DNA of 64,000 nucleotides from Alphaproteobacteria bacterium. Its GTDB lineage: Bacteria > Pseudomonadota > Alphaproteobacteria > Rs-D84. This document shows, piece by piece, positions 1,607 through 53,625 of this stretch. How positions within the stretch are numbered: position 1 is the first letter of the stretch; each line of letters starts with the position of its first letter. The stretch is taken from NCBI GenBank assembly GCA_009783145.1, contig WRHR01000005.1, positions 194 to 64,193 of the forward strand. The letters run 5' to 3'. Position numbers and translations under genes: made by a program. The notes under the pieces were generated by a model. It was not told where the DNA came from. It saw nothing but the letters and a program-made list of their open reading frames with translations, and searched no databases.

Positions 1607-2570
1607 AAATCACCTCGTCTATTTCCACCGTCCCGGATGCAAGCGACGCGTTATAATTCTCACGCGCGCGGTCATACGGAAGACGAATCATATCCCCGGG
1701 CTTTGCGCGCGCCGCGCGGATTGCTGCAACAAGAGCCGAGCAATCTTTCTTGAACTTATCCATATCCACAAGAATTTTCGGATCAATCGCAACGATTGCC
1801 GCGCCCCACTCCTTGTCATACGTTTTATTATCAATAAAAGCGCCGTTTGCCAGCGGGCCGGCAAGAAGTTCCGCCAGCATCGCAAAACCCGAAGCTTTGT
1901 ATGAATTCCCGAACGGGGCAAGCGCGCCGTCCTCTATAACGTCCGCAGGATTAGTAGTCGGGTTTCCGTCCTTGTCAAAGGCAATCCCTTCGGGAAGTTT
2001 TTCCCCGCGCGCGTTCGCTATGACGCAGCCATAGAATGTCATAGCCGAAGTGGCGGCGTCGAACACTATCGGATCGCTGGTCGTAGGAAAAGCATAGCCG
2101 ACCGGGTTAGTGCCGAAAATCGGATCAATCGAGCCGAAAGCAACTGCCGTCGAACTGGAGCGGCTGCACATTATGCCGATAAGGTCTTGCTTTGCAATCT
2201 GCTCGACATAATAGCTCTGCGCGCCGTTAGACGATCTGAAATTGTGCGCCGTCACTATGGAAACGCCGGCCTTCTTTGCCTTTTCTATCGCAATATCAGC
2301 TGCTTTTTGAGCAATAAGAATTCCCGGATTGCCCGCGCCATCAAGCAGTGCCGATACGGGGGTTTCCCGCTGAGCCTTAATTTCGCCAGTCGGTATGATA
2401 TCTTGGATGGGCGAACCGCCTGCAAGCTTGGCTATGCCTTGAGTCCCGATTCCTCCGCCGCACATTTCGGCGTAAATAAGATAATCGGCAATGACCTCTC
2501 GTTCCGCTGGTTTTAGATGAATAAAAAGCGGAATTATTTTAGCCTTGAGTTCCTGGATGGATATTTTCAT
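1587..2570 (-). CDS. Ldh_2 family (malate/L-lactate/sulfolactate-type) dehydrogenase
   Basis: FGTNPVGYAFP and HNFRSSNGAQSYY-type motifs of Ldh_2 family; ATG at 2570 preferred (AGAGAGG 8 nt upstream) over the TTG at 2588. Confidence 0.75.
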   Translation of the reverse strand: MKISIQELKAKIIPLFIHLKPAEREVIADYLIYAEMCGGGIGTQGIAKLAGGSPIQDIIPTGEIKAQRETPVSALLDGAGNPGILIAQKAADIAIEKAKKAGVSIVTAHNFRSSNGAQSYYVEQIAKQDLIGIMCSRSSSTAVAFGSIDPIFGTNPVGYAFPTTSDPIVFDAATSAMTFYGCVIANARGEKLPEGIAFDKDGNPTTNPADVIEDGALAPFGNSYKASGFAMLAELLAGPLANGAFIDNKTYDKEWGAAIVAIDPKILVDMDKFKKDCSALVAAIRAARAKPGDMIRLPYDRARENYNASLASGTVEIDEVIYGKIFG

Positions 2571-2592
2571 AAAGAAACCTCTCTTCAAAAAA

Positions 2593-3183
2593 TGTCAGAC
2601 GGGCCGTAAGCCGGATTCTGTTCTATGGCATAATTAATCTGTCGCGGCGGATTACTCCACCGGATCAAGCCCTCTACCCGCCCCCAACGCCAGGCGCGCT
2701 GGGGACCATGTGGAGAAAATATTGCGCGATTTGCGGCAGGGGATTTGAAGCAAGGACGAGGATTTTCGCGCAGACCGTATATTATACGGGCAAGCGGAAA
2801 TCCGAAGTTATTGATTCAAATACGCGCCGTCGCTTTGCGATGCAGCTAAAATCACCCATCGCTTTGTCAGATTGGCTCGATGTATAATATACATTTTCGC
2901 CAATCTTTCGCGCGCTGTGCGATTTTATCTCGCACAAATCGCGCAATATTTTCTCCACATGGCCCCTGGGGGCCTATTTGAAGTTGCACCACATAGAGAT
3001 TGCCCGTTTCACCCGCCTTCGCCAAGGCTACGGCGGGCAAGCCCGTCATGCCTTATTGAAGACGACTCCGTCTCTGTTGCTCTGATCGTCGGGTCGCCCC
3101 GCCGGGCCGTTAGCCCGTATGCTGCCTGGTGGTGTCCGGACTTTCCTCGCCATTTCTGGCGCTATGCCTCGCCCGTCTGACCG
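2593..3183 (-). ncRNA. rnpB: RNase P RNA (bacterial type A core) with large insertion
   Basis: Minus strand contains P4 5' strand GAGGAAAGTCCGGAC (about 3139-3153), P4 3' strand ACAGAATCCGGCTTA (about 2608-2622), P1 pairing GTCAGACGGGC/GCCCGTCTGAC (3171-3181 with 2594-2604), GCAACAGAGA, GGGTGAAAC, CAAATAGG and GGGTAGAGGGC blocks in canonical order. Confidence 0.85.
2706..2962. repeat. 257-nt insertion in rnpB bounded by 28-bp perfect inverted repeat
   Basis: 2706-2733 CCATGTGGAGAAAATATTGCGCGATTTG is the exact reverse complement of 2935-2962; interior holds AT-core palindromes CCGTATATTATACGG and ATGTATAATATACAT. Confidence 0.75.
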
Positions 3184-3235
3184 TTATAAAATACAGCAAA
3201 TTTTCCAAAAATCAATTGATTTTTTCCGCAATAAT

Positions 3236-4516
3236 ATGCACTATGCGTTTGTGTCATTAATTGCCCCAATCTTGAACGAATCCCAACTGCGCGCGTTCGC
3301 GGAGATTGAAAACAGCAACCGCAATATCCTGATTCTGGGGCAAGCCGGAACCGGCAAATCAACCTTTGTGAATTACCTTAAATCGGCCAGTAAAAAGCGT
3401 ATCATCTGCGCCTGCCCAACGGCCGTGTCCGCGCTGAATATCGGCGGGCAGACAATCCATTCCTTGTTCCAAATCCAGCCGCGCGACTTTGTCATGCCGG
3501 ATTTGTTAAAGCTGAAATCTCGCCCGCGAAACATCCTGAATGCCGCGGACTTGCTGATAATCGACGAGGTCTCGATGGTGTCGCCCGACATTCTGGACGC
3601 TATGGATATCCTTAGCCGCTGGGCGAGGAAAAATAACTTGCCCTTTGGCGGGCTGCAGGTCGTCGCAATCGGCGACTTGTTCCAATTGCCGCCTGTGATC
3701 ACCCGCGATGCCGAACAGTTCTATCTGGAATCGTACGGCATGCCGAACGCTTATTTCTTCGACGCGCACGCATACAAGCGCGCTGACTTTAATCGCGCCG
3801 ATTTCGACTTCGTCTATCGTCAAAGCGACGACAATCTGCTGCAGCATTTATTTGATTTAAGAACAGGCGCGGATATCGCGGAGGCGCTGAATTATTTCAA
3901 CAATTTAAAAATCGCGGATGCCGCAAAGCGTGAAAATGCCGTCATTATCACGCCTTTCCGCGCGGTCGCGGATAGAATAAATGCCGACCGCTTGGCGCAA
4001 ATTCCGGCGCCCGAGATAACTTACAAGGGCGAACTGACCGGAAACTTCAACGAAAAAGACGTTCCCGCGCCTATGAACCTGACCTTGAAAATCGGGGCGT
4101 TGGTCGTCTTCGTGAAAAACGGAAACGACTGGCACAACGGCAGCATGGGCATAGTTCGCGAATTGTCGCACAACTTGATAAAGGTCCAACTGCTGGGCGG
4201 CGAACTTGTCGATGTAAAGCCCGACAAATGGGAGAAAATGGAATACGAGCGCGATGAGAAAGACAAGCTGGTTGAAAACGAGGTCGGCAGCTATAAACAA
4301 TTCCCGCTGGCGCTGGGTTATGCGATGACCATTCACAAAGCGCAGGGAAAAACTTTGGATGCAGTCGTTGTGGATATCTCGCGCGGGGCGTTCGCGCACG
4401 GACAGACTTATGTTGCGCTGTCTCGCACGCGGCGCGCGGATGATATGCATATCGCCGCCCCGCTGCGCGGGCGAGATATAATTTTCGATAGACGCGTTTT
4501 GGAATTTGTGGGATAA
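3236..4516 (+). CDS. Pif1/RecD-like superfamily 1 DNA helicase
   Basis: Walker A GQAGTGKST, Walker B IIDEVSMV, GDLFQLPPV, C-terminal TIHKAQGKT...YVALSRTR; ORF-track start 3119 overlaps rnpB so ATG 3236 chosen. Confidence 0.8.
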   Translation: MHYAFVSLIAPILNESQLRAFAEIENSNRNILILGQAGTGKSTFVNYLKSASKKRIICACPTAVSALNIGGQTIHSLFQIQPRDFVMPDLLKLKSRPRNILNAADLLIIDEVSMVSPDILDAMDILSRWARKNNLPFGGLQVVAIGDLFQLPPVITRDAEQFYLESYGMPNAYFFDAHAYKRADFNRADFDFVYRQSDDNLLQHLFDLRTGADIAEALNYFNNLKIADAAKRENAVIITPFRAVADRINADRLAQIPAPEITYKGELTGNFNEKDVPAPMNLTLKIGALVVFVKNGNDWHNGSMGIVRELSHNLIKVQLLGGELVDVKPDKWEKMEYERDEKDKLVENEVGSYKQFPLALGYAMTIHKAQGKTLDAVVVDISRGAFAHGQTYVALSRTRRADDMHIAAPLRGRDIIFDRRVLEFVG

Positions 4517-33611: not shown

Positions 33612-34535
33612 TTATATTTTATCCGGCAATTTCAGCATTTCGCCCAGTTTAAAGTCCCATTCTTCCGGATGAAATTTCAGCAATCCGCTGCCGGGCGTGA
33701 AAGTCAATTCTCCGATTTTCAGCCCCGTTTTCAGCTTTATGATATTGATGCGCACCAGCGGGAACGGCTCGGCCAATTTTTTGCACAGTTCCAGCATTTC
33801 CTTGAATTCTTTGGGCTTTTTAATGTCGCCCGTAGAACGCCCCATATTTTTCTTGAAAGGCATCCGCTTGAAATTCAAATCAAACTCGTCCGATATATGA
33901 CGACCCTGTTCATCAAACCCGCGCAGCATTATCCATACGGGCTTTCCGTTAAAGCAAAAGAATTCGTACTCGGTGCCGCCCTTATCCATTTCCGGAATAT
34001 ACTTTTCGCATATTATCCGCGGCACGATATTCTTGTACCCCCATTCGAACCCGCGGAAATAGATATTTGCGGCCGGCCGCGTCCATTTCCTCAGTTTTTC
34101 GCGCGCCTTTGCAACATCCAAGTCCTTCTTTGACCGGCAGATTATATTCTGTTTGCAGCCCCAATTGACCTTTAGCACGAATTGTTCGGGCAGCTTATCA
34201 AAGTCTATCTCGTCCGCGCTGCGATATACGCCGATAAGATCGACTAGATACTGCGGGCCGACCGCGTCGGCGATATATTCCCTTGCGCGGTACTTGTCCG
34301 CGCACAAAGTAATCAAAGAATCATGATAGTAAAATTTCAGCCACTGGATTTTCTCGCTGTACGAACGCGGATTATCCAAATTCAAATCATATCCGTGCGC
34401 GCGGCGAAATCTATAGCCCAGGATGAATCTTATGTCCTTTTCGGGCAAGTTTTCATCGATGCGGCGCGCCCGCAGCCGAATATATTTTATAAAATCCGAC
34501 AAGCGGCGCAAAAACGAGGGCTTTTTGATTTGCAT
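33612..34535 (-). CDS. TupA-like ATP-grasp family protein
   Basis: KVNWGCKQNIIC, EYEFFCFNGKP, INIIKLKTGLKIGELTFTPGSG resemble the TupA-like ATP-grasp pattern; start 34535 or 34571. Confidence 0.55.
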   Translation of the reverse strand: MQIKKPSFLRRLSDFIKYIRLRARRIDENLPEKDIRFILGYRFRRAHGYDLNLDNPRSYSEKIQWLKFYYHDSLITLCADKYRAREYIADAVGPQYLVDLIGVYRSADEIDFDKLPEQFVLKVNWGCKQNIICRSKKDLDVAKAREKLRKWTRPAANIYFRGFEWGYKNIVPRIICEKYIPEMDKGGTEYEFFCFNGKPVWIMLRGFDEQGRHISDEFDLNFKRMPFKKNMGRSTGDIKKPKEFKEMLELCKKLAEPFPLVRINIIKLKTGLKIGELTFTPGSGLLKFHPEEWDFKLGEMLKLPDKI

Positions 34536-34672
34536 TGCAACTATTCCTATATTCCGCTCAATTAATAACATTAAAATTGCAAGGTAGCAAGGGTAAAGAA
34601 TTTGTACATTTGGCGAGTTTATTTAAAAAATACTTGCAATCGGCAAAAAACTGTGCAAAAATCCCAACCTGT

Positions 34673-34749
34673 GCGAGCGTAGCTCAGTTGGCTAGAGCGC
34701 AACCTTGCCAAGGTTGAGGTCGAGGGTTCGAGCCCCTTTGCTCGCACCA
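34673..34749 (+). tRNA. tRNA-Gly(GCC)
   Basis: GCGAGCG-TA-GCTC-AGTTGGCTA-GAGC-G-CAACC-TTGCCAA-GGTTG-AGGTC-GAGGG-TTCGAGC-CCCTT-TGCTCGC-A-CCA. Confidence 0.9.
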
Positions 34750-34947: not shown

Positions 34948-34975
34948 TTGACAAATGGATATTTTGTTGTAGAAT
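34948..34975 (+). promoter_or_regulatory. promoter TTGACA-16-TAGAAT positioned for a leaderless transcript
   Basis: -10 ends 34975; ATG at 34982 lies exactly 7 nt downstream. Confidence 0.5.
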
Positions 34976-34981
34976 TGTCGC

Positions 34982-37555
34982 ATGTCGGCAAATCTGACCC
35001 AAAATTTTTCCAATTCCGATTCCGCCTTCGCCAAGGCTCCGGCGGACAAGACGCAGCGCAGCGAAGCCGCATTTGCGGCCGCGGTGCGCGACCTGTTGCT
35101 GTTCGGCGGCAGCACCAATCTATTTTCAGATCCCGGGAACCTGGTTTTGAACCTGCCCTATCGCTTTTTCGCGTACACCGCTCCCGCTTGGGCAAAAAAA
35201 GGCTTTTTCGACTTCCATTTTCCATTCCGCTTTTCAAAAGACGGCCCCTCGGAGTTCCTGGACGTTTTCTTCAACACTTTGCACAAAAAGCTGGAAGCCG
35301 TAAAAACGAACAGATTAAAAGCCGTATCTTTAAAAAACGACGCTTGGGAATTCGACGCCGTGTTGAAACTGCTCGCGCCGGAACTGGAATTCGCGGACCC
35401 TTCCGAGAAGCTGGACTTTCTAAAAAACCAATGCAGCCTTAAAGACGAGGGCCACGTTCAATTTGAAGACCAACAAATCTTTCTCTCGCGTTATGCGATG
35501 ATGCTGGTGGCGATAAATATCTCGGCCAGAAAAAACATGTCCAAGGCATTCCAGGACGATTTGAACTCCCCATTGTTCTCAGACGGAAACGACCCGGACG
35601 CCATGCAAAAATCAAAGGCCGACTTCGAATCCGAAATGCGCTTGAGATTCGCTTATTATTACTTCGCGCGTTCCGACATCAACAATGCCGATACGAAAAC
35701 GATCGTCGCCGAGATTTGGAATCATATTCGCGGAAAGCAGCTTAAGGAAGCATACGAATCCGCTATGGCAAAACTGGATTTTACGGCGAAGGCGTTATTA
35801 AGCCCCGAAGACAACAAGAAATTCTTCGGGTTGCTGGGAAAATTCAAGCTGGAATACATTTTCGACATCTTGTTTTCCAAGCGAAAGGGCGATTTCAAGA
35901 CGGAATTCGAAGACGCTTTGAACGACGCGGGCTATGTATTCGAACGGGGCAAATGGCGCAAAGGCAAAGACACGGCGGCGCAATATCCGGGCGGTACATT
36001 CTCGCCGCATATCGGATTTTTCCTTTGCCGGTGCATAAACGCATTCTGCGAATTCATCGAGCAGGAAAAAGAAAACTGTCCCGAAGACAATCGGCAGGAA
36101 TGGCTTGAATCGCTGGCGAAAAACTTCTTCACCGCGGTTCGAAACGAGTATGGCAAAGCGGATAAGGGCGTGGACTTCATCGCCGCGCCGAAATTCGTAA
36201 ACCAGCATCATAAAAACGCGCGCAAGCAAGCGGACGCGGCAGAGGCCGGCTCGGGGCGGACAATCGTCGATAAACTCAGCGGCGAAACGACGCGCGAATC
36301 CCCTGGTTTCATAGACTTGTGCAAATGGCAGACATTGTTCAGCAAAGACACCGAAGCCTGCCTGAATTACAGAAAAGGCGACGAGCGGACATTGGAAAAA
36401 CTGCACGCCCAATTCGCCGCCAATCCTTGTCAAGAAACAGCGGATGAAATCTATGAGGCGGAAAAGGACCTTATAGAACTAAATATGTCGATCTATGGGT
36501 GCAACTGCAACGCGTGGATAAGGATTCCTATGCTGGGACGCGACGGCAAGCCTGTGCCGCGTCCACTGATCGGCGACAAAAAACCCGTCAGAATCGAAAG
36601 TTTTCCGGAACCTGTCAAAAACACTCAGACGACCCTCTTCCCGTTTGTCGTTCCGTATGACATCGATGTCGGCCAAATAGAACTGCCAAATGAACCATTT
36701 GAAAAAATACTTGCCGATTTGCCGGAAATACATTATTCCACGGCAGAAAAATTCCACCGCTTCAAGAAAACGGAAAACGGCTGGCCGCGCATCAAGGACG
36801 GGAACTATGAATGCATCAACGAATTCCTGCATGAAGAATATAATCCGGAAACTTGGACGACTATGGACGGAAAACCGTCGAACACCGGACGCACAAGAAA
36901 GAACTGCAAGCTGAAATACTTTTTATTCGAATGGGATCATCTGGACCCGAAGGAGCAATATAAAAAACTTTTGGCATACGAAAAATATATCGAACGCGCG
37001 GTATGGTCGGCTGGGGAAAATGGTTCCATACATATCAAAATCAAAGCGCTGTATGAACCCATAGTTCTGGAAGAATATGATTGGTTGCGCAGGCATATGC
37101 TTATCAAATTTGGATTCTTTGACAGCGACCCGAATACAAAAGACAACAGCCGCTGCACGCGAGTGCCGAATGCGACAAGCCCAAATACCGGCAAGCCGCA
37201 GAAGTTATTGCATTACAATCCGGACGCATGTTTTTCCGAGAACTGGCGGCCGCTGTTTATGGCCGAAAGAAAAGAAGCCGAAAGGCAGAAAGCATTGGCA
37301 GCGCAACACAAAGCGTCCATGCTATATTATACCGCCGACTCGAACGACAAGTGGCGGAACTATTGGATTGACAGGACGAAAGAAGCGCGCGCAATGCTGA
37401 CGGAAGGAAACCGCACGGCCGCGCTTCCCAAGATAATCAATACCAGTGCAAGCAGCGTTCTCAGCGAGCAAGACTTTATTGATTTGCTAGGCGACCTATT
37501 GGAAAAAGACAATATCAATTATTTAAAAACTTTGTACAAGGCCAACACGCATTAA
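34982..37555 (+). CDS. large hypothetical protein with C-terminal AEP (primase-polymerase)-like motif set
   Basis: 857 aa; YFLFEWD (E650-x-D652), SAGENGSIHIKIK (S682-I-H684), FFDSD and RCTRVPNATSPNTGKPQ (from R724) in the order expected for AEP motifs I-III; N-terminal 600 aa unrecognised. Confidence 0.6.
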   Translation: MSANLTQNFSNSDSAFAKAPADKTQRSEAAFAAAVRDLLLFGGSTNLFSDPGNLVLNLPYRFFAYTAPAWAKKGFFDFHFPFRFSKDGPSEFLDVFFNTLHKKLEAVKTNRLKAVSLKNDAWEFDAVLKLLAPELEFADPSEKLDFLKNQCSLKDEGHVQFEDQQIFLSRYAMMLVAINISARKNMSKAFQDDLNSPLFSDGNDPDAMQKSKADFESEMRLRFAYYYFARSDINNADTKTIVAEIWNHIRGKQLKEAYESAMAKLDFTAKALLSPEDNKKFFGLLGKFKLEYIFDILFSKRKGDFKTEFEDALNDAGYVFERGKWRKGKDTAAQYPGGTFSPHIGFFLCRCINAFCEFIEQEKENCPEDNRQEWLESLAKNFFTAVRNEYGKADKGVDFIAAPKFVNQHHKNARKQADAAEAGSGRTIVDKLSGETTRESPGFIDLCKWQTLFSKDTEACLNYRKGDERTLEKLHAQFAANPCQETADEIYEAEKDLIELNMSIYGCNCNAWIRIPMLGRDGKPVPRPLIGDKKPVRIESFPEPVKNTQTTLFPFVVPYDIDVGQIELPNEPFEKILADLPEIHYSTAEKFHRFKKTENGWPRIKDGNYECINEFLHEEYNPETWTTMDGKPSNTGRTRKNCKLKYFLFEWDHLDPKEQYKKLLAYEKYIERAVWSAGENGSIHIKIKALYEPIVLEEYDWLRRHMLIKFGFFDSDPNTKDNSRCTRVPNATSPNTGKPQKLLHYNPDACFSENWRPLFMAERKEAERQKALAAQHKASMLYYTADSNDKWRNYWIDRTKEARAMLTEGNRTAALPKIINTSASSVLSEQDFIDLLGDLLEKDNINYLKTLYKANTH

Positions 37556-37579
37556 AAACGCGGCGTTCGCCGCGTTTTT

Positions 37580-37581
<2 letters not shown>
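37555..37581. terminator. bidirectional rho-independent terminator
   Basis: AAAAACGCGGCGTTCGCCGCGTTTTTTT between convergent genes. Confidence 0.7.
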
Positions 37582-40645
<3,064 letters not shown>

Positions 40646-53512: not shown

Positions 53513-53625
53513 CACTTCGCGTCTGCGACGCTTCGTGTGGCAAGCCACGCGAAATGCGGAGCAGTGCAACGCGAAGTAGTGTCGCCCGAAGCCTTGGCGA
53601 AGGGGGACCGGCAAGCCACCAAAAA
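53508..53625. repeat. tRNA-3'-flank repeat, copy 2
   Basis: Same modules and order as 34745-34880, starting at the last acceptor-stem nucleotide of the tRNA. Confidence 0.8.

What the first reader, a model, noticed from the sequence alone, without database searches (positions are those of the whole stretch)
34982..37555. 857-aa orphan protein with an AEP primase-polymerase-like motif set, next to tRNA-Gly
The C-terminal third contains, in canonical order, YFLFEWD (acidic pair), GENGSIHIKIK (SxH with a preceding glycine-rich turn), FFDSD and RCTRVPNATSPNTGKP. This resembles motifs I-III of archaeo-eukaryotic primase and prim-pol enzymes of plasmids and phages. The first ~600 aa match nothing I recognise. 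The gene follows a tRNA and its flank repeat, has a consensus promoter placed for a leaderless mRNA, and carries a GC hairpin insertion at codons 14-23. Speculation: a template-independent or slippage-prone polymerase is the kind of activity that could make tandem heptamer arms.
Basis: inference. Interest (0 to 1): 0.65.

Follow-up and report, generated by a model that had tools for sequence, protein, structure and literature searches.

The report
Novel-domain protein carrying swappable primase module
This gene of a tiny-genome termite-gut bacterium encodes a real AEP-type DNA primase fused to a large domain with no recognisable relatives, and related genomes keep that domain but swap in other, unrelated primase modules.

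Summary
The ORF and all four quoted motifs are real. The AEP reading is supported. In 24 divergent homologues E650, D652, S682, H684, D716 and R727 are invariant. The AlphaFold model of residues 570-857 (pLDDT 91.6) hits only AEP enzymes at the top: RepB' primase and cyanophage S-2L PrimPol. Homologues match PHROG 'DNA primase'. hhalign links the domain at 98% probability to a protein with the InversePrim domain order (PriCT, then AEP, then RepA-type helicase).

The protein is not an orphan. Residues 1-545 form a confident helical domain with no Pfam, PDB or viral-structure match. In the genomes sampled from this order it occurs only in one family of about 0.7-1.1 Mb Alphaproteobacteria, in 17 of 151 genomes. 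It always lies at the same locus, and some relatives have clean empty sites there.

Orthologues keep the N-domain but carry different primase modules: two AEP subtypes, Prim-Pol+PriCT_2, or a Toprim domain.

A TTGACA-16-TAnAAT promoter ending 6-7 nt before the start codon is conserved in 12 of 14 loci. dN/dS is 0.09-0.19. DnaA, DnaB and DnaG are all present, so this is an accessory primase.

Its biological role is unknown. The idea that it makes heptamer arms has no support.

The parts
34673..34749 (+). tRNA-Gly(GCC). It marks one edge of the variable slot that holds the gene. This ~130-nt segment is inverted here relative to all four relatives compared.
   Evidence: ARAGORN. tRNA positions in relatives. 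blastn orientation.
34948..34975 (+). Sigma-70-type promoter TTGACA-16-TAGAAT. The -10 box ends 6 nt before the ATG, so the mRNA is probably leaderless.
   Evidence: Scan gives 11 of 12 matches. The same TTGACA-16-TAnAAT ends 6-8 nt before the start in 12 of 14 orthologous loci. No RNA data were available.
34982..37555 (+). CDS of the 857-aa two-module protein: a novel N-domain plus an AEP primase with a helical bundle.
   Evidence: Contigs from two termite-gut metagenome runs are identical over 35021-37700. dN/dS between close homologues is 0.09-0.19.
34982..36616 (+). N-terminal domain (residues 1-545). It is mostly alpha-helical with small beta elements and was found only in this bacterial family. 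No sequence or structure relative is known.
   Evidence: AF2 pLDDT 80.9, pTM 0.79. Foldseek best E is 0.23 against PDB and 0.12 against BFVD. No Pfam, NCBIfam or PDB sequence hit. The HMM finds it only in family f1.
35020..35050 (+). In-frame copy of a dispersed ~30-nt GC-rich palindromic repeat (codons 14-23). It is absent from all homologues.
   Evidence: At least 20 other copies in the genome. Gap in homologues. pLDDT below 50 for residues 1-22.
35180..35257 (+). Second insertion specific to this protein (residues 67-92, APAWAKKGFFDFHFPFRFSKDGPSEF). It is unique in the genome and predicted to be disordered.
   Evidence: Gap in all 13 homologues. Single blastn hit to itself. pLDDT below 50 at residues 73-89.
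36617..36706 (+). Low-confidence linker (residues ~546-575). This is the junction at which C-terminal modules differ between orthologues.
   Evidence: pLDDT below 50 at 545-570. Domain identity matrices.
36707..37246 (+). AEP-superfamily primase catalytic domain (residues ~576-755).
   Evidence: AF2 pLDDT 91.6. Foldseek top hits are RepB' 3H20 (E 2e-4) and S-2L PrimPol 6ZP9 (E 2.2e-4, TMt 0.54), followed by CAPP, LigD-Pol and human PrimPol. hhalign 98%, E 2e-13 to P0150. 21 of 24 homologues hit phrog_2597 'DNA primase'.
36917..36937 (+). Motif I, YFLFEWD. E650 and D652 are the predicted metal ligands.
   Evidence: Invariant E and D in A3. E-x-D in all 13 AEP-type orthologues.
37013..37045 (+). 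Motif II, GENGSIHIKIK (S682, H684). It carries a 2-residue insertion relative to the family consensus SGNKSxH.
37115..37129 (+). Motif III, FFDSD. D716 is invariant.
37151..37198 (+). Arg-containing motif RCTRVPNATSPNTGKP. R727 is invariant and corresponds to 'motif IV' of the PrimPol-PV1 supergroup.
   Evidence: Motif IV is described in PMC5862659.
37247..37552 (+). Long tether helix plus C-terminal helical bundle (residues ~756-857), with a PriCT-like EGNRTxxL motif.
   Evidence: Helices at domain residues 187-287. RepB' aligns over 240 columns, which is longer than the ~180-residue catalytic domain. The PriCT_1 match is only weak: E 0.21 in one homologue.
37554..37579 (.). Bidirectional terminator-like hairpin (A5-CGCGGCG..CGCCGCG-T7) between the stop codons of this gene and the convergent 317-aa membrane-protein gene.
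   Evidence: Sequence. DNA fold -12.9 kcal/mol, z -3.5.

Best explanation
The gene encodes a functional accessory DNA primase, possibly a primase-polymerase.

**Shown or strongly supported**
- Residues ~576-755 form an AEP-superfamily catalytic domain. Its nearest relatives are phage primases of the PrimPol-PV1 supergroup (phrog_2597, InversePrim-type).
- The domain has a complete catalytic motif set: E650-x-D652, S682-x-H684, D716 and R727.
- A tether helix and a helical bundle follow (residues ~756-857), as in RepB'.
- Residues 1-545 form a large helical domain found only in one family of reduced-genome gut Alphaproteobacteria.

**Inferred mechanism**
- E650, D652 and D716 hold the two metal ions.
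- H684 and R727 bind the incoming nucleotide.
- The helical bundle helps hold the initiating nucleotide and template.
- The N-domain supplies targeting, to a DNA structure or to a partner protein. It is the constant part of the protein, whereas the priming module is interchangeable between orthologues: two AEP subtypes, Prim-Pol+PriCT_2, or Toprim.

**Context**
- The gene is a single transcription unit with a strong promoter placed for a leaderless mRNA.
- It occupies a presence/absence slot between tRNA-Gly and a conserved membrane-protein gene.
- It is dispensable. DnaA, DnaB and DnaG are present, and PriA is present though split by an insertion in this genome.
- It most likely derives from the replication module of a mobile element.
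For: **Catalytic domain**
- Motif residues are invariant across 24 divergent homologues and across 13 orthologues.
- The model has pLDDT 91.6. Its top Foldseek PDB hits are all AEP enzymes: RepB' at E 2e-4 and probability 1.0, and S-2L PrimPol at E 2.2e-4, TMt 0.54 and rmsd 3.5 A over 156 columns.
- 21 of 24 homologues match phrog_2597 'DNA primase', best E 1.4e-16.
- hhalign gives 98% probability and E 2e-13 to P0150, whose domain order is PriCT_2, AEP, AAA_25, with motifs I-IV aligned.
- Other distant homologues are fused to DUF5906/VapE, AAA_25 or PIF1-like helicases.
- Bridging homologues hit annotated 'DNA primase' genes of Paenibacillus, Bacillus and Flavonifractor phages.

**Module swapping**
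- P0027 (G013) carries Pfam Prim-Pol (1.8e-8), PriCT_2 (3e-20) and phrog_1156 at the same htpX-lysS locus.
- G003 and G016 carry a Toprim module: Toprim_3 at 8.8e-4 and phrog_239 primase/helicase at 1e-8.
- Identities are mosaic. L009 is ~60% identical to L003/L008 in the N-domain but ~23% in the C-domain. L010 and L011 are 56% identical in the N-domain but carry AEP versus Toprim.

**Functional constraint and expression signals**
- dN/dS is 0.09-0.19 in both domains.
- The promoter is conserved in 12 of 14 loci.

**Accessory status**
- The N-domain is in 17 of 151 family genomes.
- G007 and G020 have empty sites.
- dnaG, dnaA and dnaB are present.
Against: - No biochemical or expression data exist; only DNA runs were found.
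- The window protein itself hits no Pfam, PHROG or NCBIfam primase model. Its assignment rests on profiles built from homologues and on a predicted structure.
- Foldseek TM-scores are moderate (0.34-0.54).
- Motif II carries a 2-residue insertion (SAGENGSIH) not seen in homologues.
- The targeting role of the N-domain is pure inference.
- Some orthologues are split or frameshifted (G003, G032, L051). The gene is therefore sometimes decaying, or those assemblies contain errors.
Confidence: 0.78

Rival explanations
1. It is a conflict or defence (or counter-defence) protein. The variable N-domain senses an invader or a DNA structure, and the primase module makes aberrant primers or DNA as the effector.
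For: - Distribution within genera is patchy.
- The gene sits in a fixed presence/absence slot next to a tRNA, with other cargo in neighbouring genomes.
- dN is 4-10 times higher than in flanking genes.
- Catalytic modules are shuffled between orthologues.
- The gene has its own strong promoter.
Against: - PADLOC gives no credible hit for six family members: five have none and one has a single weak JetB match at E 0.023.
- It is a single gene with no conserved partner.
- Selection is clearly purifying, with no sign of pervasive positive selection.
- I know of no defence system built around an AEP or Toprim primase effector apart from CRISPR-associated Prim-Pols (own knowledge; PMC8211822 was listed).
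Confidence: 0.15
2. It is a back-up priming or replication-restart enzyme of the chromosome. It would reprime stalled forks in genomes whose restart machinery is eroding.
For: - priA is interrupted by an insertion of a few hundred bases near profile position 180 in G000, G002 and G013, all of which carry this gene.
- The genomes are strongly reduced, at 0.7-1.1 Mb.
- PrimPol-type repriming is an established role of AEPs in eukaryotes (own knowledge).
Against: - Many carriers have an intact priA: G001, G003, G006, G008, G009, G012 and G014.
- In G017 and G019, which lack the gene, priA is found only in pieces, in G019 on separate contigs of a fragmented assembly.
- Most family members lack the gene altogether.
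- A housekeeping partner interface would not be expected to diverge to 25-38% identity within a family.
Confidence: 0.12
3. It is a catalytically dead or decaying remnant of an integrated mobile element and has no present function.
For: - Its relatives are phage and MGE primases.
- Some copies are split.
- Loss is frequent.
Against: - All catalytic residues are invariant.
- dN/dS is 0.09-0.19.
- The promoter is conserved.
- The ORF is intact at ~700-940 aa in most carriers.
Confidence: 0.05
4. One reading: a slippage-prone or template-independent polymerase that generates the tandem-heptamer hairpin arms scattered through this genome.
For: The only support is co-occurrence in this genome of the gene and the many hairpin elements (notes; window hairpins). 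RepB', the best structural match, recognises hairpin ssi sites (own knowledge).
Against: - G007 lacks the gene but has a heptamer-arm hairpin (L047 1802-1891).
- No sequence or positional link between the gene and the hairpins was found.
Confidence: 0.03

Closest known systems
InversePrim / phrog_2597-type phage primases of the PrimPol-PV1 supergroup (Kazlauskas et al. 2018, PMC5862659)
   Same: The AEP catalytic core is homologous: hhalign 98%, E 2e-13 to a protein with the domain order PriCT_2, AEP, RepA-type helicase. It shares His in motif II, acidic motifs I and III, and the conserved motif IV Arg. Relatives are annotated 'DNA primase' in Firmicutes phages and prophages (paper read).
   Different: There is no helicase domain. 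The helical bundle follows the primase rather than preceding it. A ~545-aa unknown domain sits at the N-terminus. The gene is chromosomal, stands alone in an alphaproteobacterium, and is not inside a recognisable prophage.
RepB' primase of plasmid RSF1010 (PDB 3H20)
   Same: It is the best structural match (E 2e-4, probability 1.0, 240 aligned columns). Both have a catalytic AEP domain, a tether and a helix-bundle domain.
   Different: Sequence identity is 13%. RepB'-like enzymes have Gln instead of His in motif II (PMC5862659), whereas this protein has His. RepB' is about 320 aa with no large N-terminal domain, and it works with the plasmid proteins RepA and RepC.
Bifunctional Prim-Pol (Pfam PF09250) with PriCT_2, as in pRN1 ORF904-type and phage enzymes
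   Same: It belongs to the same superfamily and the same functional class. An orthologue of this gene (P0027, G013) carries exactly this module behind the same N-domain.
   Different: The window protein does not match PF09250. hhalign of its domain profile against P0027 finds nothing.
Primase-helicase fusion proteins of phages, plasmids and satellites (P4 alpha, D5-like, T7 gp4 type)
   Same: The logic is modular: a priming domain fused to a large partner domain, with AEP and Toprim primases displacing each other between relatives (own knowledge).
   Different: The partner domain here has no P-loop and no helicase fold. The primase is C-terminal.

Membership tests
AEP (archaeo-eukaryotic primase) superfamily | Motif I: a hydrophobic strand ending in two acidic metal ligands (DxD, DxE or ExD) | tested here: met
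   FLFE650WD652. The E and D are invariant in 24 homologues and in 13 orthologues. The motif lies at the end of a predicted strand.
AEP (archaeo-eukaryotic primase) superfamily | Motif II (sxH) and the motif III acidic residue | tested here: met
   S682, H684 and D716 are invariant.
AEP (archaeo-eukaryotic primase) superfamily | AEP catalytic fold | tested here: met
   The AF2 model has pLDDT 91.6. Five of the seven best Foldseek PDB hits, including the top five, are AEP enzymes, with the best at E 2e-4 and probability 1.0. TM-scores are only 0.34-0.54. This is a predicted structure, not an experimental one.
AEP (archaeo-eukaryotic primase) superfamily | De novo primer synthesis or polymerase activity | not testable with these tools
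   This needs biochemistry.
PrimPol-PV1 supergroup, InversePrim family (PMC5862659) | Sequence-profile relatedness; His in motif II; conserved Arg in motif IV | tested here: met
   hhalign 98%, E 2e-13 to P0150 with the motifs aligned. H684 and R727 are invariant.
PrimPol-PV1 supergroup, InversePrim family (PMC5862659) | Domain order: PriCT, then primase, then RepA-family helicase | tested here: not met
   No helicase or P-loop domain was found. The helical bundle follows the primase. The protein is therefore related to this family but is not a member by architecture.
Pfam Prim-Pol (PF09250) and VirE_N / BT4734-like (PF08800) | Match to the family HMM | tested here: not met
   hmmscan of the whole protein and of the C-domain returns no families, even at E up to 10.
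RepB' primase family (Pfam RepB_primase PF16793) | HMM match; Gln in motif II | tested here: not met
   The window protein has no hit, and only distant homologues match weakly (1.8e-3 and 0.094). Motif II has His, not Gln. The resemblance is structural only.
PriCT-1 / PriCT-2 helical domain | HMM match to the C-terminal helical bundle | tested here: inconclusive
   Only one homologue matches PriCT_1, at E 0.21. A helical bundle with an EGNR..L motif is predicted.
Known anti-phage defence systems (PADLOC-DB v2) | Match to any defence-protein model | tested here: not met
   Six family members were scanned. Five gave no hit, and one gave only a weak JetB match at E 0.023.
Bacterial DnaG replacement (sole replicative primase) | Absence of dnaG from the genome | tested here: not met
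   dnaG scores 421 bits, above its cut-off. dnaB and dnaA are also present.

The most novel reading that the evidence does not exclude
The ~545-aa N-domain is a new protein fold that defines a new class of helicase-independent priming factor. It would recognise a specific DNA structure or host or invader component and recruit whichever primase chemistry is attached (AEP, Prim-Pol or Toprim). That would make it either a minimal single-gene selfish or defence module, or a new route of replication initiation or restart in extremely reduced bacterial genomes.
Probability: 0.2. Interest if true: 0.8.

Novelty: new variant of a known kind. Interest (0 to 1): 0.58.

Why it matters
Bacteria are thought to rely on DnaG for chromosomal priming, and AEP primases in bacteria are regarded as near-exclusive cargo of mobile elements. 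Here an AEP primase sits as a stand-alone gene under purifying selection in sub-megabase genomes.

It is joined to a large domain that has no relative in Pfam, the PDB or the viral structure library. Orthologues at one locus replace the AEP with Prim-Pol or Toprim modules. That is a natural experiment showing the N-domain needs some priming activity, whichever enzyme supplies it. It is also a compact example of non-orthologous displacement of primases.

Identifying what the N-domain binds could reveal a new way of directing primer synthesis.

Tried and rejected
**Direct searches with the whole protein.** Pfam, NCBIfam, PHROGs and PDB sequences gave nothing. PDB profile searches with A1, A3 and A4 gave only noise.

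**Direct tblastn.** The C-domain and the N-domain against 50,697 phage records, and the whole protein against 72,556 plasmid records, gave no match. Only bridging homologues reach annotated phage primases.

**hhalign of the C-domain profile against the Prim-Pol orthologue P0027.** No relation was detected.

**N-domain.** Foldseek against PDB and BFVD gave no significant hit. Weak Bro-N-like fragments (probability 0.3-0.47) were rejected as noise. A member-wise Pfam scan gave no recurrent family. A sensitive HMM search found no relation to the helicase-type N-termini of other proteins that carry this AEP at the C-terminus.

**Replacement hypotheses.** A role as DnaG, DnaA or DnaB replacement is rejected because all three are present. 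The PriA-loss correlation is not consistent.

**Xenologous replacement versus fast evolution (G000 against G002).** This could not be decided, because dS is saturated in the flanking genes too.

**Other.** The search for related loci with A4 failed because no stretch was conserved enough. With A1 it returned only two MAG records titled 'Alphaproteobacteria bacterium'. No RNA-seq runs exist for testing the leaderless start. The 35050-to-37554 joint seen in the metagenome contigs has only 30 letters on its shorter side, which the tool flags as typical of repeats or other organisms, so I did not treat it as a real deletion.
Full report
**1. The observation**

The ORF at 34982-37555 (+) is real and encodes 857 aa. 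The four quoted motifs are at residues 646-652, 678-688, 712-716 and 724-739. tRNA-Gly(GCC) lies at 34673-34749.

The window comes from a 0.95-Mb, 24-contig genome that is 92% complete. It was assembled from termite-gut metagenomes. Contigs from two separate runs match 35021-37700 without a single difference.

The surrounding genes are housekeeping: smpB, lemA, htpX, lysS, tgt, queA, era, murJ.

**2. It is not an orphan**

The whole protein matches nothing in Pfam, NCBIfam, PHROGs or PDB sequences. Full-length homologues at 39-40% identity do exist. They sit in the same gene order, lysS - tRNA-Gly - gene - 317-aa membrane protein - tgt - queA - era, in other Alphaproteobacteria MAGs.

An exhaustive profile search found 274 proteins. 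About 20-30 of them cover the N-terminal ~550 residues. All the rest match only profile positions ~570-815.

**3. The C-terminal domain is an AEP primase**

Sequence conservation:
- An alignment of the window's residues 570-857 with 23 divergent homologues (18-56% identity) leaves N613, E650, D652, Q659, S676, S682, H684, D716 and R727 invariant.
- These correspond to AEP motif I (E-x-D), motif II (S-x-H), motif III (D) and the Arg of 'motif IV' described for the PrimPol-PV1 supergroup (PMC5862659).

Family links:
- 21 of the 24 sequences match phrog_2597 'DNA primase', best E 1.4e-16. The window's own sequence does not.
- More distant homologues carry this domain fused to D5-like (DUF5906/VapE), RepA-like (AAA_25) or PIF1-like helicases and to PriCT_2.
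- hhalign links the domain profile to P0150 at 98% probability, E 2e-13, with every motif aligned. P0150 has the domain order PriCT_2, AEP, AAA_25, which is the 'InversePrim' architecture of Kazlauskas et al..
- Bridging homologues hit annotated DNA primase genes of Paenibacillus, Bacillus and Flavonifractor phages, and primase-helicases of Streptococcus prophages.

Structure:
- AlphaFold2 on the 24-sequence alignment gives pLDDT 91.6.
- Foldseek against the PDB returns RepB' primase (3H20; E 2e-4, probability 1.0, 240 columns) and the AEP domain of cyanophage S-2L PrimPol (6ZP9; E 2.2e-4, TMt 0.54, rmsd 3.5 A). CAPP Prim-Pol and LigD polymerase follow directly, with human PrimPol, pRN1 and ASFV PrimPol further down the list.
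- After the catalytic core come a long helix and a helical bundle (domain residues 187-287). This resembles the RepB' tether and helix-bundle and the PriCT domains. The PriCT HMM evidence is weak, at E 0.21.

**4. The N-terminal domain is new**

Residues 1-545 model confidently (pLDDT 80.9, pTM 0.79) as a mainly helical domain with small beta elements. Low-confidence stretches coincide with two insertions unique to this protein and with the linker at 545-570.

- Foldseek finds nothing in the PDB (best E 0.23) or in BFVD (best E 0.12).
- No Pfam family recurs among 17 members.
- There is no P-loop.
- The domain HMM finds it in 17 of 151 sampled genomes of the same family, in 11 of 18 genera. 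It finds it in none of the other families of the order: 17 of 301 genomes hit, all within the one family.

**5. Modular primase swapping**

This is the most informative result. Orthologues keep the N-domain, the locus and the promoter, but they differ in the C-terminal module.

| C-terminal module | Genomes | Evidence |
|---|---|---|
| AEP described above | 13 |. These fall into two subtypes only ~23% identical to each other. |
| Pfam Prim-Pol (1.8e-8) + PriCT_2 (3e-20) + phrog_1156 | G013 (P0027) | Sits just downstream of htpX-lysS, with a tRNA and two extra genes between. |
| Toprim-type module (RPLYNLH...EGAKTADA...DAD) | G016, G003 | Toprim_3 at 8.8e-4; phrog_239 'DNA primase/helicase' at 1e-8. 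|

The identities are mosaic. L009 is ~60% identical to L003/L008 in the N-domain but ~23% in the C-domain. L010 and L011 share 56% in the N-domain yet carry AEP and Toprim respectively.

The N-domain therefore requires a priming activity of any chemistry. This independently supports reading the C-domain as a working primase.

**6. Locus and evolution**

- G007 and G020 have clean empty sites, with the membrane-protein gene, tRNA-Gly and lysS next to each other.
- G004 and G005 hold unrelated genes (Hsp70-like, methyltransferase, glycosyltransferase) between tRNA-Gly and lysS.
- In relatives the gene lies on the 5' side of tRNA-Gly. Only in this genome is the ~130-nt tRNA segment inverted, with an extra 319-aa ORF between it and lysS.
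- Between G000 and G002 the flanking proteins are 82-93% identical and this protein 46% (dN 0.49 against 0.05-0.13). dS is saturated throughout, so fast evolution and allele replacement cannot be told apart.
- In unsaturated pairs dN/dS is 0.09-0.19 in both domains, which is clearly purifying selection.
- A few copies are split or frameshifted: G003, G032 and L051.
- dnaG, dnaA and dnaB are all present in the genome. priA is also found but is split by an insertion. The protein is therefore accessory.

**7. Expression signals**

TTGACA-16-TAGAAT at 34948-34975 matches 11 of 12 positions. TTGACA-16-TAnAAT ending 6-8 nt before the start codon is present in 12 of 14 orthologous loci, including the most divergent ones. 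This is strong comparative support for a leaderless mRNA, but no RNA data exist.

A bidirectional terminator-like hairpin follows the stop codon.

**8. The insertions**

Codons 14-23 (35020-35050) are a copy of a ~30-nt GC-rich repeat with at least 20 other copies in the genome. The stretch is absent from all homologues.

A second insertion, residues 67-92, is unique in the genome.

**9. Biological role (inference)**

The best-supported reading is a primase derived from a mobile element and targeted by a lineage-specific domain.

| Role considered | Assessment |
|---|---|
| Conflict or defence | Fits the patchy, hotspot-bound, modular pattern. Lacks any credible PADLOC match and any partner gene. 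|
| Replication restart | Suggested by split priA in G000, G002 and G013. Contradicted by carriers with intact priA and by priA found only in pieces in two genomes that lack the gene. |
| Heptamer-arm synthesis | No support. A genome of the same genus that lacks the gene still has a heptamer-arm hairpin. |

**10. Verdict**

The 'orphan' label and the heptamer speculation are not.

The catalytic domain is a new member of a known superfamily. What is new is the architecture, the N-domain with no recognisable relatives, and the interchange of primase types at a single chromosomal locus.

Noticed in passing
G000 contig C11, about 1994-4036 (outside the window): priA is split into two same-frame ORFs, an open frame of at least 370 aa and another of ~393 aa, by an insertion of a few hundred bases that contains stop codons, near profile position 180. 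priA is also found in two pieces broken near the same position in G002 and G013, and only in pieces in the fragmented assemblies of G017 and G019. This could be a recurrent insertion of a mobile element or intron at one site of an essential helicase gene.
   Followed up: partly
window 34619-34749, compared with L001, L003, L047 and L048: The tRNA-Gly(GCC) segment, comprising the tRNA plus ~55 nt upstream, is inverted in this genome relative to all four relatives compared. Here it is followed by a repeat that also follows tRNA-Thr (window ~53513-53564, 92% identical over 53 nt).
   Followed up: partly
window 33612-34571 (-): A 319-aa ORF lies between lysS and tRNA-Gly. It is absent from that position in the relatives examined. 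In G004 and G005 the gap between lysS and tRNA-Gly instead holds an Hsp70-like gene, joined in G005 by methyltransferase-like and glycosyltransferase-like genes. The interval is a variable cargo slot.
   Followed up: partly
window 35020-50; the same genome at C1, C2, C3, C4, C6, C7, C8, C10, C14, C20 and elsewhere: A ~30-nt GC-rich palindromic repeat (core CCGCCTTCGCCAAGGCTCCGGCGG) has at least 20 further copies in the genome. At least four are in this window, near 3206, 10184, 28493 and 40427 in contig C5 coordinates, which run 193 ahead of window coordinates.
   Followed up: partly
window 37580-38533 (-): The convergent 317-aa membrane protein, which ends in CPRCGHTF, is conserved at 48-91% identity next to tgt in every relative examined, whether or not the primase gene is present. 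It is therefore not functionally tied to the primase gene.
   Followed up: partly
L012 1414-4139 (G003); L038 (G032); L051: Some orthologues are split. G003 has a 688-aa ORF plus a separate 188-aa Toprim ORF 93 nt downstream. G032 has 595-aa and 319-aa ORFs. L051 has a 72-aa N-terminal fragment followed by a 674-aa ORF. I did not resolve whether these are real frameshifts or assembly errors.
   Followed up: no
L047 1802-1891 (G007): A hairpin whose arms are tandem ~7-nt units (TTAGTGG/TTTGTGA...) occurs in a same-genus genome that lacks the primase gene. The heptamer-arm hairpin type is therefore not restricted to genomes that carry the gene.
   Followed up: partly
window 37554-37579: An A5-stem-T7 hairpin sits exactly between two convergent stop codons and looks like a bidirectional terminator. 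A 29-nt stretch 93% identical to it occurs in G002 at another intergenic site (L001 15143-15171).
   Followed up: no
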